Virus record (IMG/VR): IMGVR_UViG_2663763478_000004
DNA length: 8,894 nt
From: a virus
Taxonomy: Duplodnaviria; Heunggongvirae; Uroviricota; Caudoviricetes
Direction: 5' to 3' (one strand)
The position numbers and the translations under genes were made by a program. Below, one piece after another: positions 3,251-8,894 of this stretch; position 1 is the stretch's first letter; each line of letters starts with the position of its first letter. The notes beneath the pieces were generated by a model. It was given only the letters and a program-made list of their open reading frames with translations. It was not told the origin of the DNA and searched no databases.

Positions 3251-3286
3251 ATTGTAAAAACCTCATATTGATGGTCAGCACTGACT

Positions 3287-3952
3287 TCATGGCATGGCCA
3301 TGAGCATTTTCACGTCCGCATCACCGTCTGCTGACGTCTGTGGCACGCCACCCTGTACCGCTGCCGGTGAATGGTTCGCCATGAAATGTTCAAACATGGC
3401 GGTTGTGGATGCAGAAACCGGTTCTGCCCNNNNNNNNNNNNNNNNNNNNNNNNNNNNNNNNNNNNNNNNNNNNNNNNNNNNNNNNNNNNNNNNNNNNNNN
3501 NNNNNNNNNNNNNNNNNNNNNNNNTTCTCCACGGTCATCCCCGGACAGGCCGCCAGTTTTTCAGCCTGCGCCTCTGCCCCTTTTGCCTCATCCAGGGCCA
3601 TAATCTGATCACGAAGTGAGGGTCCGGCATTCGCCTGCGGTGAAGCAGCCAGAATCGGACGGGCTTTTTCCACCGTCATCTCCGGCATCGCCGCCAGCGT
3701 TGCCGCCAGTTGTTCACGTCCTTTCGCCTCTTCACATGCCATAATGCGATCGGCTTCACTCTGCGCAGATACACCAGATTGTTGCGGTGCCGCCACGGCC
3801 AGAATCGCCCGGGCCTGCTCAACGCTCATACCCTGTTGCCCTGCCAGCATCGTGGCCAGTTGTTCACGTCCTTTCGCTTCCTGACACGTCAGGATCCCCA
3901 TCACTCGCTGGTTCTCCTGCGCGGCAGCCTCCGTTGCAGTTAATTGCGGCAT
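3287..3952 (-). CDS. nu3: Scaffolding protein Nu3, nested in-frame in the 3' part of C (contains the N run)
   Basis: In-frame internal ATG at 3952..3950 (Met302 of the C ORF, ...DTGGT-M-PQLTATEAAAQ...) preceded on the - strand by AGGAGG-cact-ATG. It aligns with the GGRM... region where lambda Nu3 begins inside C. The exact start is an inference. Confidence 0.55.
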   Translation of the reverse strand: MPQLTATEAAAQENQRVMGILTCQEAKGREQLATMLAGQQGMSVEQARAILAVAAPQQSGVSAQSEADRIMACEEAKGREQLAATLAAMPEMTVEKARPILAASPQANAGPSLRDQIMALDEAKGAEAQAEKLAACPGMTVEXXXXXXXXXXXXXXXXXXXXXXXXXXXXXXXXXAEPVSASTTAMFEHFMANHSPAAVQGGVPQTSADGDADVKMLMAMP

Positions 3953-4855
3953 AGTGCCTCCTGTATCGTGTGTGTTCAGCGTCGCAGCCATCACGCTGAT
4001 GGCGTCCGACGCATTGATTAATTCATCCGCCAGTTCGGCCTCAATACCGGACTGACCTTCAAAAACGGCGGCCTCTGTTCCCATAACCGCATCCACAGAT
4101 AAACCGGTATACATCGCCACTTTTTCAGCAAACATCCGGCGCGCCGCATCAATGCGCTGCTGCATGTCCTGGCGAACCTTTGCTGGCAGGGATTCAAACT
4201 GATTGCCATCCACCTTGTGCGATCCGGCGTAAATCAGCGTGATATCCACACCGGCCTGTGCCAGATGACCGGCATAGCTGACATGGCCCATCATCACCCC
4301 AATGGAGCCGATACGGGATGTCTGGGTAACCAGCCGTCGGGAGCAGGCCGATGCCAGTAACATGGCGGCTGAACAGGCCGTGTCATTGCACAGTGCCCAG
4401 ACAGGCTTCAGCTGCCGGAGACGGTAAATCATGTCAGCGCAGTCAAACGCGCCGGTGGCCTGCCCGCCAGAACTGTCAATGTCCAGCAGTACGCCCCGTA
4501 CCTGAGTGTCCGCCATTGCCTGCTGAAGACAGGCGACAATGCCGTCATAGCCAGTCATTCCGGAAAATGGCCGCATGCCACCCAGCCGGTGTACCAGCGT
4601 GCCGGTCACCGGCAGTACAGCAATACCGTTCACCACCCGGTAAACACGGGCAGGTCGTTTGCCTCCGGCCATGTACTCGTCCGTTTCAGCCAGCATCCCG
4701 GGAGCGTCAAGCTGTACCTGCTGTTGCGGTACCGAAAGGCTTGCTGCGCCCATCTCACGCCCGAGCGCGCAAAAGAAAACCCGCGCATAGGCGGGCTCCA
4801 GAAGCAGCGGCTCATTGAATGCCGCAGCGATAATATGTGAAAGATTACGTCTCAC
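3287..4855 (-). CDS. C: Prohead protease / minor capsid protein gpC (S49 SppA-like family), interrupted by a 95-nt N run
   Basis: N-terminal 300 aa colinear with lambda gpC (AFNEPL.LEPAYARVFFCAL, VNGIAVLPV.GTLV, GVLLD.D..GG...GAFDCAD.I.R.R..KPVWAL.ND..CSA..LLASA.SRRLVTQT.R.GSIGVMM, LIY.GSHKVDGN). The C-terminal third carries the scaffold (Nu3) part with tandem repeats. The ORF length of 522 aa is not reliable because 3430..3524 is N. Start overlaps the portal end by 11 nt. Confidence 0.85.
   Translation of the reverse strand: MRRNLSHIIAAAFNEPLLLEPAYARVFFCALGREMGAASLSVPQQQVQLDAPGMLAETDEYMAGGKRPARVYRVVNGIAVLPVTGTLVHRLGGMRPFSGMTGYDGIVACLQQAMADTQVRGVLLDIDSSGGQATGAFDCADMIYRLRQLKPVWALCNDTACSAAMLLASACSRRLVTQTSRIGSIGVMMGHVSYAGHLAQAGVDITLIYAGSHKVDGNQFESLPAKVRQDMQQRIDAARRMFAEKVAMYTGLSVDAVMGTEAAVFEGQSGIEAELADELINASDAISVMAATLNTHDTGGTMPQLTATEAAAQENQRVMGILTCQEAKGREQLATMLAGQQGMSVEQARAILAVAAPQQSGVSAQSEADRIMACEEAKGREQLAATLAAMPEMTVEKARPILAASPQANAGPSLRDQIMALDEAKGAEAQAEKLAACPGMTVEXXXXXXXXXXXXXXXXXXXXXXXXXXXXXXXXXAEPVSASTTAMFEHFMANHSPAAVQGGVPQTSADGDADVKMLMAMP
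3430..3524. other. Run of 95 N (assembly gap or masked sequence)
   Basis: Directly visible in the sequence. It falls within the third copy of the tandem repeat in C/nu3. Confidence 0.98.
3525..3920 (-). repeat. Tandem in-frame repeats (period ~141-150 nt, at least 3 copies) inside the C/nu3 coding sequence, running into the N gap
   Basis: On the + strand gccagttgttcacgtcctttcgc recurs at about 3703 and 3855, and ccac(g/c)gtcatc at 3529 and 3670. At protein level: ...RVMGILTCQEAKGREQLATMLAGQQGMSVEQARAILAVAAPQ / ...RIMACEEAKGREQLAATLAAMPEMTVEKARPILAASPQ / ...QIMALDEAKGAEAQAEKLAACPGMTVE[gap]. Confidence 0.7.
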
Positions 4856-5468
4856 GTGATGTTGTCTCCTCTTCCGGCCTGCGACTCTCCGCTATCTGCT
4901 GCTGATACGCCTGGGCTATCCACACCGGACGTGAGAGTCCGGCTTTTTCGCGCTCTGCGGATTCCCTGACCTGCTGGCGGAAAATGTCCTGATAATCTTC
5001 GCCCATCAGTGCCAGTTCTTTCTCATACGTGCTCAGTCCGGCCTCAATGCGCATCACCGATTCCTGGACCTCCTTGAGCCCGTCAATGGCCATTCTTCCG
5101 GAGCTAATCCACTCTGCCCGTGACCAGGCTGAACGCGCCTGGTAAAAATCAAAACGCGCCCGTGGCGGACGAATAATCCCCCGAAGAAGCGCCTCTTCCA
5201 GCCAGCAGGAAAACATCTGCGTGGCCAGCCGGGCCGCAATAAATTTTCGCCGCCCCATAAAATAGCGCCACGACTCATTGGCGGAGGCGCGGGCACTTGA
5301 GTAACTGACCTTCGAGTAATCACGGGACAACTGTTCGTAGGAAACGCCAAGACCGGCTGCAATATACCGCAGCAGCGCCTGTTCAAGCGCCGAAAATCCA
5401 TTGTCTGAATCCTGCGCTGTCTGCAGGTTCAGCGCATCGCCAGGAAAAAAGGTGCGGAATTTTAACAC
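4845..5468 (-). CDS. B: Portal protein gpB, C-terminal fragment (homology begins about 5450; the annotated Met at 5468 is probably not a real start)
   Basis: PGDALNLQTAQDSDNGFSALEQALLRYIAAGLGVSYEQLSR.Y...YS.ARASANESW.YFMGRRKF.A.R...MF.CWLEEA, SGRMAIDGLKEVQE.VM.IEAGLSTYEKE match the lambda gpB C-terminal half. Confidence 0.8.
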   Translation of the reverse strand: MLKFRTFFPGDALNLQTAQDSDNGFSALEQALLRYIAAGLGVSYEQLSRDYSKVSYSSARASANESWRYFMGRRKFIAARLATQMFSCWLEEALLRGIIRPPRARFDFYQARSAWSRAEWISSGRMAIDGLKEVQESVMRIEAGLSTYEKELALMGEDYQDIFRQQVRESAEREKAGLSRPVWIAQAYQQQIAESRRPEEETTSRET

Positions 5469-6438
5469 CGCCCAGCGTCACGTTATTCGTGTCATACCAG
5501 CGGGTGAACTTCTCCAGAATATTAATAAGCGGATTATCCTGCTGACCTTGCGGTGCCCCCGCGATATATTCAAATGCCTTTTCGGTATCAAGTTCACTTT
5601 CGATTGTGGCTGCATACATCGCCTTCACAATGGCCGACTGAAGCTGCGTGGCCTGCAGGGAGTCCAGCATCTTCATCCGCTCCATTACGCTGTAAAACTG
5701 ATTAGCCCCACGGGTCTGCCCGTCCTCCACCGGCTCAAAAATATGCAGCATGGCCGGACGCCCGGTGGGAAGCTCACGCGGGATCCGCTCCCAGCGTCCG
5801 GCACCAGAGAACGGAAAATCATCCTCACAGATATGGTACGCAATCGCCCGCCCATACCGATCGACCTCAACCCCGGCCCGCAGAAAGTGGTTCCCCATAC
5901 CGTGTCCTGGCGTGTCCACCCGTTTCGGACTCACGGCTTTAAAACGCGTACGGAATAACTGCGTGGTTTCCGTATCCCAGACCGGCTGCACAAAGATTTC
6001 GCCGTTAAAGGCATGCACGCCCACCCCTTCACGGATAAATTCCGTAAACGTGCGTTTCCCTTCCACGTCGATCTCGCCAAACATTCCTTCTGCGTATTCC
6101 GACCAGGCTGCTTCCACCTCCCCGACAAAACTTTTTGCCGTGGTCTCCCGCATCCCCAGCCAACGCCAGTTCAGACGGTAGCTGATAAGAAACATGTGCC
6201 CGACGATATGATCCTTATGCAGGGCCACCGCATTAGCCGCGATACCGTTATTGCGCACCAGATCATCTGCCCGGGCATTCCCCAGACGCAATGCAGGCAA
6301 CAGGGCCGCATCGGCACTCTGCGCCGGTGGTAACCACTCTGCCATTTGCCCGCCAAATCCTGCGCCGCCTCCGTTGTAGCTGAGACTCTCACGAAGCGGA
6401 ACGCCGTTCACATCAATCAGGACAGGCGTTCGTTTCAT
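5383..6438 (-). CDS. B: Portal protein gpB, N-terminal fragment (homologous through about 5446; the last ~20 codons are out-of-frame read-through)
   Basis: GGGAGFGGQ, AALLP..R.GNARADDLVRNNG.AANA, KRTFT..IREGV..HAFNGE.FVQ, IPRELP.GR....H.FEPVEDGQTRGAN.FYSVME.MKMLD.LQ.TQLQSAIVKAMYAATIESELDT all match lambda gpB. ATGA overlap with the W stop. Confidence 0.8.
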   Translation of the reverse strand: MKRTPVLIDVNGVPLRESLSYNGGGAGFGGQMAEWLPPAQSADAALLPALRLGNARADDLVRNNGIAANAVALHKDHIVGHMFLISYRLNWRWLGMRETTAKSFVGEVEAAWSEYAEGMFGEIDVEGKRTFTEFIREGVGVHAFNGEIFVQPVWDTETTQLFRTRFKAVSPKRVDTPGHGMGNHFLRAGVEVDRYGRAIAYHICEDDFPFSGAGRWERIPRELPTGRPAMLHIFEPVEDGQTRGANQFYSVMERMKMLDSLQATQLQSAIVKAMYAATIESELDTEKAFEYIAGAPQGQQDNPLINILEKFTRWYDTNNVTLGGVKIPHLFSWRCAEPADSAGFRQWIFGA

Positions 6439-6638: not shown

Positions 6639-8549
6639 TCACTCCTCCGGACAGCTTCGCTGCCAGTTCTTCAAGGGTCGGTTGTGCAGTTGCATCCTTG
6701 CGGGATGCAACTGCACAGCCAGATCAAGTTGCCAGCGTTGCACGGACACACGTAATGCCGCATAGGCATACACCAGGCAGTCCAGCGCTTCGTTACGCCG
6801 CTTTTTGTTATCCCACAACAGACGCATCTTTCCTTTTTCCCACTTTTCCACCAGTTCCTCCGCCACCAGTTGTTGTGCCTCTGTCTGCGAAAAAATCTCC
6901 GGATTATCAGGAAAGCGGATGGCATACGATGTGGCCTCATTCACAGGGGTGGGATCGGCCTTCATTCGGGCATAGAGAATTTCTTTTGCGGTATCCGTCC
7001 CCACCTCACACAGATACACACCCCGCTGATTGCGGGTTTTCGGCATGGTGATCACCGGCTTGCCATAGACAGAGGCACCTTTTACCGGCAGTACCCGGAA
7101 AATACCGTGTTTTTTTGACCTCTGATACACGATTTCGCCATCGATCCCCCCGATATCCCAGCAGACACGGGAAATGGTCATTTCGGTACCGTCTGCATGG
7201 CGGTATTTTTTATTGATCGCCGCATCCACACGTAACAGCGTCTCTTCCTCATCAGGACGTCCCATGATGATGATTTTATCCACCAGAAAGGCTTCCTCTC
7301 CCGGAGCCCACCCCCAGACATACATCTCAAAACGGTTTCGCTGCGAGTCAATGCCCGCCGTCAGATAAACCACCCGGACAGGCACCGTTGCCGTGTAAGG
7401 CACAACCTTATCCATCAGTACCTGGTGATCGAGTTTTTCGCCCACGGCCTCTTCCCAGGTCTCGCCCAGCGTGGTGTTCACAAAAGTTTTCACGCCGTTG
7501 GGATCTTTCAGTGCATCCAGCCAGTCACAGACTATCTGTACCCTGGTGGTGAACGGACTGTACGCCGTCCATATATGGAAAGTGATGGAGCGCGGCGGCG
7601 GAATTTCATTACCCGAAGCACTGAAAAACGTCAGACCGTCACACGTCCACATCCCGGTATTGTCACAAATCCAGCGCCCCCCGGTCTGATCAAGTTCAGA
7701 CTGACGGATCACGCAGCCATTATGTTCACACAGGTAATACACCGTTTCCGGTTTACCCTTCTCCCATTTCAGGCCAAACGACGTCGCATCATCGCCAAAC
7801 TTCAGATACTGCTCCTCCCCGCAATGAGGGCAAGGGACATAAAACCGCATGAAATGCGCAGATTCATTCGCAGCTTTTTCAATCTGACAGGAGCCTTTAA
7901 TTTTTGGCGTTGAACCGCGTATGGATTTTGGCCATACCGAACCTTCAATACGTTTATCGCCAAGCAGTGTTGGCGAACCTTCTTTTTCCACATCCGGTTC
8001 AAACGAGGAGAGTTCGTCATAGCAGACCACATCGACAGATTTTTCACGGTAGTTTTTGGCAGCAGCACCACCCAAACACCAGAACCCCACACCAGAGGAA
8101 AAACGCTTCAGTGTGAGCGTATTATCCCGGTGTTTCCGGCCCAGCCAGGGAGAAAGTTTTTTCAGGCAAGGAACATCACGAATTGTTGCTTCCACGTGAG
8201 ACTTCATAAAATCTTCAGCAGCTGAGTCCGTCGGCTGAAAAAGAAGAGTGTTGCGGGATTTGTGCTCAATAAAATACCCGATCACACCAAGCACCATTTT
8301 TGTATAACCAACACGGGCAGATTTAATCAGGTTAACTGTACGAATCTCGTCATTGCCCATGCAGTTCATGATGGCGACCTGAAACTGCAGCGTTTTCCAT
8401 TCCCCCTCACCGTATGACGATTCTTTAGGCAGGTAATAATTTTGATCGGCCCATTCTACAGCCGTCACCGGCAATACCCTGACCAGTGGCTGCAGTGCGA
8501 TAGTGACTGCCACCATCATATTACTCAGTTGTTGTTCTGATATATTCAT
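6639..8549 (-). CDS. A: Terminase large subunit gpA (ATPase/translocase plus cos endonuclease)
   Basis: The ORF runs to 8606, but homology to lambda gpA begins at the internal ATG 8549..8547 (MNISEQQLSNM versus lambda MNISNSQVNRL), giving 636 aa versus 641 in lambda. Long near-identical blocks: TAVEWAD.NYYLPKES, NTLTMKRF..G.GFWCLGG.AAKNYREKSVDV.GYDEL, FLGDKRIEGSVWPKSIRGSTPK, HFMRF.V.CPHCGEEQYLKFGD, FVNTTLGETWE, KGASVYGKPV, KRRNEALDC.VYA.AALR.S..RWQLDL. Confidence 0.95.
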   Translation of the reverse strand: MNISEQQLSNMMVAVTIALQPLVRVLPVTAVEWADQNYYLPKESSYGEGEWKTLQFQVAIMNCMGNDEIRTVNLIKSARVGYTKMVLGVIGYFIEHKSRNTLLFQPTDSAAEDFMKSHVEATIRDVPCLKKLSPWLGRKHRDNTLTLKRFSSGVGFWCLGGAAAKNYREKSVDVVCYDELSSFEPDVEKEGSPTLLGDKRIEGSVWPKSIRGSTPKIKGSCQIEKAANESAHFMRFYVPCPHCGEEQYLKFGDDATSFGLKWEKGKPETVYYLCEHNGCVIRQSELDQTGGRWICDNTGMWTCDGLTFFSASGNEIPPPRSITFHIWTAYSPFTTRVQIVCDWLDALKDPNGVKTFVNTTLGETWEEAVGEKLDHQVLMDKVVPYTATVPVRVVYLTAGIDSQRNRFEMYVWGWAPGEEAFLVDKIIIMGRPDEEETLLRVDAAINKKYRHADGTEMTISRVCWDIGGIDGEIVYQRSKKHGIFRVLPVKGASVYGKPVITMPKTRNQRGVYLCEVGTDTAKEILYARMKADPTPVNEATSYAIRFPDNPEIFSQTEAQQLVAEELVEKWEKGKMRLLWDNKKRRNEALDCLVYAYAALRVSVQRWQLDLAVQLHPARMQLHNRPLKNWQRSCPEE

Positions 8550-8844
8550 CGAGTAAATCCGGTAATTTATCCCCCGCACGCGCGCACTGATTCGCTCCCT
8601 TAGCAATAAGGATTTTCAGATGATCAATATGACGCGGCGTTAAATCCGGGAACTGTCGTTGCATGGACAAAGGAATGGAGTCAAGCGTACTGGATAAAGC
8701 CATCGCCAGCTTACTAAGGGCAAAAATACAAAATCCGGTATCGATAAGATTTCCTTTTGACACCTGATTTTTTAACTGCTGTGCGACAGCCTGTTCTGCG
8801 GTCAGTTCCCATCTGGCAATGAGTAGTTTGAGGTGTACTGGCAA
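8521..8844 (-). CDS. nu1: Terminase small subunit Nu1-like, C-terminal (gpA-interacting) part only; the frame is closed upstream by TAG at 8856..8854 and the N-terminal DNA-binding part is not readable in this frame
   Basis: ...ARWELTAEQAVAQQLKN......IDTGFCIFALSKLA...S.LD..PLSMQRQFPDL..RH.D.LK..I.K...........LPDLLDEYI matches the C-terminal ~100 aa of lambda Nu1 (181 aa). The 3' end overlaps the A start by 29 nt, as in lambda. The first in-frame start-like codon is TTG at 8844..8842, which I do not consider a genuine start. Confidence 0.75.
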   Translation of the reverse strand: MPVHLKLLIARWELTAEQAVAQQLKNQVSKGNLIDTGFCIFALSKLAMALSSTLDSIPLSMQRQFPDLTPRHIDHLKILIAKGANQCARAGDKLPDLLDEYIRTTTE

Positions 8845-8894
8845 TAGCGGACACTACCATTTGTTCTTTTTTTAAGCAGCCATCTGATGATATT

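What the first reader, a model, noticed from the sequence alone, without database searches (positions are those of the whole stretch)
8845..8894. Nu1 (small terminase) frame closed by an in-frame TAG; N-terminal coding region appears frame-scrambled near a T7 run
The Nu1-homologous frame is open only from 8853 downward, with TAG at 8856..8854, yet about 75 N-terminal codons (the winged-helix cosB-binding domain in lambda) should lie upstream. In the last 50 nt of the window the other two - strand frames give NIIRW (compare lambda Nu1 VIKW) and LKKEQ (compare KLRRE), which hints at frameshifting indels or a small deletion relative to lambda, but these matches are too short to be conclusive. A T7 homopolymer (8867..8873) lies in this stretch. 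Either the phage has an atypical or defective small terminase, or this is another homopolymer artefact.
Basis: partly seen in the sequence, partly recalled or inferred. Interest (0 to 1): 0.45.

Follow-up and report, generated by a model that had tools for sequence, protein, structure and literature searches.

The report
IS600 insertion sequence truncating prophage small-terminase gene
The "scrambled" start of the small-terminase gene is the last 66 bases of the common Shigella insertion sequence IS600, which replaced the gene's first 67 codons in a decaying Shigella flexneri prophage; this is an ordinary finding.

Summary

Window 8829..8894 is nt 1199-1264 of IS600, a 1264-bp IS3-family element. 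It lies in the same orientation as the terminase genes.
- The Nu1 frame there reads YHQMAA*, the C-terminus of the IS600 OrfB transposase.
- The TAG lies in the IS600 terminal inverted repeat.
- The T7 run is native IS600 sequence.

Homology to an intact 169-aa small terminase in E. coli prophages (99.9% DNA identity) starts exactly at 8828/8829, which is codon 68. Only the C-terminal 102 codons remain (8828..8521).

Except for a run of N at 3430..3524, the window is 100% identical to several assemblies of the same locus; the junction itself was found in a Shigella flexneri chromosome. In those assemblies the other side of IS600 is a truncated Rz lysis gene, and the flanks show no 3-bp target duplication (GGG versus AAC). 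This is therefore an IS600-bounded deletion of about 1.95 kb that removed the Rz 3' end, the cos region and the DNA-binding domain of the small terminase.

The large-terminase and portal genes are also frameshifted, so the prophage is defective. Interest is low.

The parts
8829..8894 (-). Right end of insertion sequence IS600 (nt 1199-1264 of the 1264-bp element), co-oriented with the terminase genes. It holds the last 6 codons and stop of orfB (YHQMAA*, 8892..8872), the native A7/T7 run (8867..8873), the TAG at 8856..8854, and the imperfect right terminal inverted repeat ending ...ACACCTCA (about 8858..8829).
   Evidence: Bases 1-68 of the - strand query are 100% identical to the IS copy in Stx2 phage 481 (H23). 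That copy encodes orfA (100 aa) and orfB ending REKYHQMAA. The full 1264-bp element is annotated 'IS3-like element IS600 family transposase' in RefSeq E. coli genomes. It occurs at up to 43 places per genome, on chromosomes and plasmids. The exact ends TGAGGT...ACCTCA are shown.
8521..8828 (-). 3' remnant of the lambda-Nu1-type small-terminase gene: codons 68-169 plus stop (KLLIARWELTAEQ...YIRTTTE*). The first 67 codons, the HTH DNA-binding domain, are absent. Gene callers extend it to a TTG at 8844 inside the IS end, which gives a 107-aa ORF.
   Evidence: DNA is 99.9% identical to the E. coli FDAARGOS_943 prophage from window 8829 downward, where the intact gene is 169 aa. Pfam PF07471 Phage_Nu1 scores 68.8 bits on profile positions 85-163 of 164 only. 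The junction is ambiguous by one base, because the final A of the IS equals the first A of the AAA codon.
6639..8549 (-). Large terminase (gpA family) gene. Its start overlaps the end of the Nu1 remnant. A 1-nt deletion at about 6712 relative to the E. coli relative frameshifts the last 30 residues, from aa 613 of 642.
   Evidence: Pfam GpA_ATPase and GpA_nuclease are recorded for the identical product.
4845..6438 (-). Portal gene (lambda B family) split by a +1 T in a T-run at about 5450 (T6 versus T5). The two ORFs are 351 aa and 207 aa, against an intact 530 aa.
   Evidence: The same sequence is present in all eight S. flexneri-type loci retrieved.

Best explanation
The window ends 66 bases inside a copy of IS600, a 1264-bp IS3-family element that is abundant in Shigella. 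This copy abuts codon 68 of a lambda-Nu1-type small-terminase gene in a lambdoid prophage of the Shigella flexneri lineage. The stops and 'scrambled' frames are IS600's own 3' end: the orfB stop, the A7 run and the terminal inverted repeat.

In genomes identical to the window, the other end of the same IS600 abuts a truncated Rz lysis gene, and the two flanks are not a target-site duplication. The IS therefore marks a deletion. The likely routes are recombination between two directly oriented IS600 copies (one in Rz, one in Nu1) or an IS600 adjacent deletion. Compared with an intact E. coli relative, about 1.95 kb is gone: the 3' end of Rz, the Rha-type regulator gene, the cos region and Nu1 codons 1-67.

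Shown: the IS identity, the exact junction, the missing codons, the Rz flank, the absence of a duplication, and the absence of a cos-like sequence nearby. Inferred: which of the two deletion routes acted; that the remnant is a non-functional pseudogene; and that the prophage cannot package DNA. The last inference is also supported by frameshifts in the large-terminase and portal genes.
For: (1) Window 8894..8827 matches a multi-copy element, while 8829 downward matches prophage terminase genes.
(2) That element is IS600. It is 1264 bp, has orfA (HTH_Tnp_1) and orfB (rve) ending YHQMAA, and is named IS600 by RefSeq annotation.
(3) The intact relative has a 169-aa small terminase, and homology to the window starts at codon 68.
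(4) The exact junction is in the Shigella flexneri SFBU1023 chromosome and one other genome. The window is 100% identical, outside the N run, to five retrieved assemblies.
(5) In those loci the order is lysozyme, Rz (truncated at L005 position 2050), IS600, Nu1 remnant, TerL.
(6) The flanks are GGG and AAC, so there is no duplication. Three of four control IS600 copies have 3-bp duplications inside a single gene or locus (AAT, CGC, GGT). The fourth has no duplication and also joins two different genes.
(7) A lambda cos-like 22-mer lies about 200 bp upstream of the intact gene in E. coli relatives and is absent from the Shigella loci.
(8) IS600 is one of five IS expanded in all Shigella species, where IS disrupt genes and mediate deletions (PMC7373316).
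Against: The window itself stops inside the IS, so the far side is known only from other assemblies that are identical to the window over the shared sequence. The size and content of the deleted segment are inferred from an E. coli relative (98-99% identical in the shared parts); the ancestral Shigella prophage could have carried different genes between Rz and cos. No expression or induction data were available, so non-function of the remnant is an inference.
Confidence: 0.93

Rival explanations
1. Simple IS600 insertion into an otherwise complete Nu1 gene, with the 5' 67 codons and cos lying just beyond the IS to the right of the window.
For: IS600 normally inserts simply, leaving a 3-bp duplication (three of four controls). 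The window itself does not show the far side.
Against: In every full-length locus identical to the window (L006, L008, L009, L010, and L004 at 99.95%), the far flank is truncated Rz, not Nu1. The flanks GGG and AAC are not a duplication. No cos-like motif lies within 5.6 kb upstream.
Confidence: 0.03
2. Sequencing or assembly artefact: homopolymer indels at the T7 run scramble the frame of a really intact Nu1 gene.
For: A T7 run is present. Other genes in the window do carry single-base indels in T-runs (portal).
Against: No frame of 8829..8894 resembles the N-terminus of the intact relative. The DNA is instead 100% IS600, including the T7 run. The identical junction is found in many independent assemblies. 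Frameshifts cannot turn 66 nt of Nu1 sequence into IS600 sequence.
Confidence: 0.01
3. A naturally short, functional small-terminase variant: the 107-aa ORF (TTG 8844 to 8521), or a shorter internal start, is expressed from IS600 read-through and works with, or regulates, the large subunit.
For: Gene callers report a 107-aa or 94-aa Phage_Nu1 product here. The retained region aligns with the C-terminal half of lambda Nu1, which in lambda carries the gpA-interaction region (own knowledge; alignment).
Against: The ORF start lies inside the IS inverted repeat. No sigma-70-like promoter was found at the IS end or the junction. The DNA-binding domain and cos are gone. The partner TerL has lost its native C-terminal 30 residues and the portal gene is frameshifted, so the module as a whole is decaying.
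Confidence: 0.03

Closest known systems
IS600 (IS3 family) of Shigella and E. coli
   Same: The 66 bases in the window are identical to the right end of IS600 copies. In identical loci the full element is 1264 bp, has TGAGGT...ACCTCA ends and orfA/orfB with a programmed frameshift, and is annotated as IS600 by RefSeq.
   Different: This copy lacks the usual 3-bp target duplication because it bounds a deletion. In some strains (L004, L010) an IS629-like element with TGAACCGCCCCGGG ends is nested inside it, and that one does have a CAA duplication.
Lambda Nu1 small terminase (Pfam PF07471 Phage_Nu1)
   Same: The retained C-terminal 102 residues align with lambda Nu1 residues about 84-181 (43% identity) and pass the Pfam cutoff. 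The gene sits immediately upstream of, and overlaps, a gpA-family large-terminase gene, followed by W, B, C, D and E homologues in lambda order.
   Different: The N-terminal 67 residues (the HTH domain that binds cosB in lambda) and the cos site are missing. Even in the intact 169-aa relative the N-terminal domain is too divergent to match the N-terminal half of the Pfam model.
IS-mediated prophage and genome decay in Shigella (Hawkey et al. 2020, PMC7373316)
   Same: An expanded IS disrupts a gene and bounds a deletion, and the neighbouring genes carry further frameshifts.
   Different: Nothing of note; this is one instance of the general pattern.

Membership tests
IS600 (IS3 family insertion sequence) | Nucleotide identity to IS600 over the sequence available | tested here: met
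   Window 8894..8827 is 100% identical to the IS copy in Stx2 phage 481 (H23). That 1264-bp element is 100% identical to copies annotated 'IS3-like element IS600 family transposase'.
IS600 (IS3 family insertion sequence) | Terminal 5'-TG...CA-3' ends with imperfect inverted repeats | tested here: met
   The left end is TGAGGTAGCCTGAGTTTAACGGACACTCC and the right end (reverse complement) is TGAGGTGTACTGGCAATAGCGGACACTACC. The right end lies in the window at 8829..8858.
IS600 (IS3 family insertion sequence) | orfA (HTH) and orfB (DDE rve integrase core) joined by a programmed frameshift | tested here: met
   In identical locus L006, orfA hits HTH_Tnp_1 and orfB hits rve, rve_3, HTH_21 and rve_2. 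RefSeq notes 'programmed frameshift'. Only the last 6 codons of orfB lie inside the window.
IS600 (IS3 family insertion sequence) | 3-bp direct target duplication flanking the element | tested here: not met
   The flanks are GGG (Rz side) and AAC (Nu1 side) in L004 and L006, whereas control copies show AAT/AAT, CGC/CGC and GGT/GGT. This is a property of the insertion event, not of the element, and it indicates a later deletion or recombination.
Lambda-type small terminase (Phage_Nu1, PF07471) | Match to the family profile above the curated cutoff | tested here: met
   The score is 68.8 bits against a cutoff of 30, but only over profile positions 85-163 of 164.
Lambda-type small terminase (Phage_Nu1, PF07471) | N-terminal HTH DNA-binding domain | tested here: not met
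   Codons 1-67 of the intact 169-aa relative are replaced by IS600.
Lambda-type small terminase (Phage_Nu1, PF07471) | Located directly upstream of, and overlapping, a gpA-family large-terminase gene | tested here: met
   The remnant ends at 8521 and TerL starts at 8549. The TerL product has GpA_ATPase and GpA_nuclease domains.
Lambda-type small terminase (Phage_Nu1, PF07471) | cos site upstream of the gene | tested here: not met
   A lambda cos-like 22-mer is present at L005 3594-3615 and L001 2594-2615 (E about 1e-5). It is absent from the Shigella-type loci L006 and L010, 13.9 kb each.

The most novel reading that the evidence does not exclude
The C-terminal Nu1 fragment might be translated from IS600 read-through. 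It would keep the region that in lambda binds the large subunit but lack DNA binding, and so could act as a dominant-negative decoy that interferes with terminase assembly of superinfecting lambdoid phages, an accidental prophage-encoded exclusion function. Nothing here supports expression. No promoter-like site was found at the junction, and the surrounding genes are decaying.
Probability: 0.02. Interest if true: 0.4.

Novelty: already known. Interest (0 to 1): 0.05.

Why it matters
It matters little beyond correct annotation. The locus should be labelled as an IS600-truncated small-terminase pseudogene in a cos-less, packaging-defective prophage, not as a frameshifted or atypical terminase and not as a sequencing error. 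It also shows that an apparent frame scramble at the edge of a window can be the boundary of a mobile element.

Tried and rejected
- I first took the multi-copy element for IS629/IS1203 because it sits in Stx2 phages. The ORFs and RefSeq names showed it is IS600. An IS629-like element is nested inside IS600 only in some strains.
- The apparent 21-codon extension of the head protease gene (522 aa versus 501 aa) looked like a duplication. Tandem Repeats Finder found nothing, and the alignment showed a run of 95 N replacing 32 bases, so it is a masking artefact.
- The window junction is not in the complete E. coli RefSeq set: the best hits cover only bases 66-895 of the query. It was found in genome contigs instead.
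- A search for the lambda cosN 12-mer GGGCGGCGACCT with up to 2 mismatches found nothing, even in the intact relatives. Only the adjacent 22-mer is conserved, so the exact cosN of this phage lineage remains undefined.
- A promoter and terminator scan across the IS end and junction found nothing.
- I did not use the large protein-database or structure tools, because the DNA evidence was decisive.

Full report
**Observation.** Read on the - strand, the last 66 bases of the window are aatatcatcagatggctgcttaaaaaaagaacaaatggtagtgtccgctattgccagtacacctca, followed by aactactcattgccagatgg.... The frame that carries the Nu1 homology reads YHQMAA*KKNKW*CPLLPVHLKLLIARWELTAEQ...YIRTTTE*. The in-frame TAG at 8856..8854 is therefore real, and a second in-frame stop, TAA, lies at 8874..8872. 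The T7 run (+ strand) at 8867..8873 is real. The other two frames read NIIRW... and ...LKKEQ....

**What the sequence is.** Megablast of window 8894..8000 splits the query at one point.
- Bases 66-895 of the query (window 8829 downward) match the small and large terminase genes of E. coli prophages, at up to 99.9% identity in strain FDAARGOS_943.
- Bases 1-68 match a different, multi-copy element. It is found at up to 43 places per genome, on chromosomes and plasmids, and in many Stx2a-converting phages.

In Stx2 phage 481 this element encodes a 100-aa orfA (MSRKTQRYSKEF...) and a 272-aa orfB that ends ...REKYHQMAA. The complete 1264-bp element is annotated in RefSeq as 'IS3-like element IS600 family transposase', with a programmed frameshift. 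Pfam finds HTH_Tnp_1 in orfA and the rve integrase core in orfB. The ends are TGAGGT...ACCTCA.

Window 8829..8894 is therefore nt 1199-1264 of IS600, in the same orientation as the terminase genes.
- YHQMAA* is the end of the transposase.
- The A7/T7 run directly follows its stop codon and is native to IS600; it is the same in the Stx2-phage copy.
- The TAG lies in the terminal inverted repeat.
- NIIRW and LKKEQ are off-frame readings of transposon DNA. Their likeness to lambda VIKW and KLRRE is chance.

**What is left of the gene.** The intact relative (WP_074132335.1, 169 aa; L001 2800..3309 and L005 3800..4309) aligns with the window from its codon 68 (AAA CTA CTC... = KLLIARW) to its stop.
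- The remnant at 8828..8521 is 102 codons long.
- It aligns with lambda Nu1 residues about 84-181 at 43% identity.
- It hits Pfam Phage_Nu1 at 68.8 bits, but only on profile positions 85-163 of 164.
- The N-terminal 67 residues are gone. In the relative these carry an HTH-like segment (TQTEVARHLSLTDRQLRRLQK) that aligns with lambda's DNA-binding domain.

**What lies beyond the window.** A 36-nt pattern spanning the junction is found in the Shigella flexneri SFBU1023 chromosome and in one genome labelled E. coli ECMA0423. Both are 99.95% identical to the window.

A look-up of the window's exact large-terminase product shows that it is on record in a very large number of assemblies. Eight loci were returned, and five of them are 100% identical to the window apart from a run of N.

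In all full-length loci the order is holin, lysozyme, Rz-type lysis gene, IS600, Nu1 remnant, TerL, W, portal and onward. IS600 occupies L006 4458..5721, exactly 1264 bp. Its left flank is the Rz gene cut at the position equivalent to L005 2050, 67 nt before the normal end of the gene.

The three bases on either side of the IS are GGG and AAC, so there is no target duplication. As controls:
- IS600 copies in a Stx2 phage, in ninF and next to lacZ have AAT/AAT, CGC/CGC and GGT/GGT.
- The one control copy without a duplication also joins two unrelated genes.
- The IS629-like element nested inside IS600 in L004 and L010 does have a clean CAA duplication.

Both flanks keep their native order and orientation and only a single IS lies between them. 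The event is therefore a deletion, not an inversion. It arose either by recombination between two directly oriented IS600 copies or by an adjacent deletion made by one copy.

Measured against the intact E. coli relative, the lost segment is L005 2051..4000, about 1.95 kb. It holds the Rz 3' end, a Rha-family regulator gene, a small hypothetical gene, the cos region and Nu1 codons 1-67. A 22-mer nearly identical to lambda nt 20-41, just right of cosN, lies at L005 3594-3615 and L001 2594-2615. It is absent from the Shigella-type loci.

**State of the rest of the module.** Relative to the E. coli relative, two more packaging genes are damaged.
- The large-terminase gene carries a 1-nt deletion at about window 6712, which replaces its last 30 residues.
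- The portal gene carries an extra T in a T-run at about 5450, which splits it at residue 331.

Both changes are present in every S. flexneri-type locus retrieved, so they are real lineage mutations and not errors of one assembly. Together with the loss of cos and of the small-terminase N-terminus, the prophage is packaging-defective. This last step is an inference; no induction data were available.

**Comparison with what is known.** IS600 is one of five insertion sequences expanded in all Shigella species, where IS interrupt genes and promote deletions between homologous copies (PMC7373316). This locus is one instance of that pattern.

No sigma-70-like promoter was found at the IS end or the junction. 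Nothing else suggests the remnant is expressed, although gene callers do report a 107-aa 'Phage_Nu1' ORF that starts at a TTG inside the IS inverted repeat.

**Verdict.** The frameshift and homopolymer-artefact interpretation is rejected, and 'defective small terminase' is upheld, but with a different and ordinary cause: an IS600-bounded deletion. The result is already known in kind, and this junction is present in many public assemblies. Interest is low.

Noticed in passing
window 3430..3524: A run of 95 N replaces 32 real bases (TGCCCGGGCTGTACTGGCGGCAGCCTCAGGCA in identical loci) inside the head protease/scaffold gene (S49 peptidase, lambda C homologue). This makes its ORF look like 522 aa instead of 501 aa. 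It is a masking artefact of the data set, not biology.
   Followed up: yes
window about 5450 (portal gene, 6438..4845, - strand): An extra T in a T-run (T6 versus T5 in the E. coli relative) splits the portal gene into 351-aa and 207-aa ORFs at residue 331. It is present in all S. flexneri-type loci retrieved, so it is a real pseudogene.
   Followed up: yes
window about 6712 (large terminase gene, 8549..6639, - strand): A 1-nt deletion relative to the E. coli relative changes the last 30 of 642 residues of TerL. In lambda gpA this C-terminal region is the one that contacts the prohead (own knowledge).
   Followed up: partly
window 7951 and 7824; L003 2934 and 3062; L004 4995 and 5123: Two assemblies (S. 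flexneri SFBU1023 and 'E. coli' ECMA0423) differ from the window by a +A and a -T 127 nt apart within TerL, which breaks the ORF there. This is either further decay in that sublineage or a shared assembly error.
   Followed up: no
L004 1934..3225; L010 about 3520..4740: In some strains an IS629-like IS3-family element (ends TGAACCGCCCCGGG...) is nested in reverse orientation between orfA and orfB of the IS600 copy. It has a clean 3-bp CAA duplication, and its own orfB is broken into pieces.
   Followed up: partly
L005 3800..4000 (intact relative of the small terminase): The N-terminal 70 residues of the intact 169-aa small terminase do not match the N-terminal half of Pfam Phage_Nu1, although they align loosely with lambda's HTH domain. 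This lineage probably has a different cosB specificity from lambda.
   Followed up: no
window 3776/3770 and 3259..3260: Relative to the E. coli relative, a +T/-C pair of indels 6 nt apart changes two codons in the protease gene. A 2-nt longer T-run (T5 versus T3) lies in the short spacer just upstream of the head-decoration (D) gene start.
   Followed up: no
L006 432..1853: One assembly carries a group II intron reverse transcriptase (RVT_1, GIIM) in the prophage region upstream of the lysis genes, where other strains have DnaB, NinH and Q genes.
   Followed up: no
L016 (E. coli O26 RM10386, NZ_CP028126.1 1540269..1541592): Another IS600 copy lacks a target duplication (CTG versus AAG) and joins a TerB-family gene fragment to an eae-like gene fragment. 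This is a second example of an IS600-bounded rearrangement.
   Followed up: no
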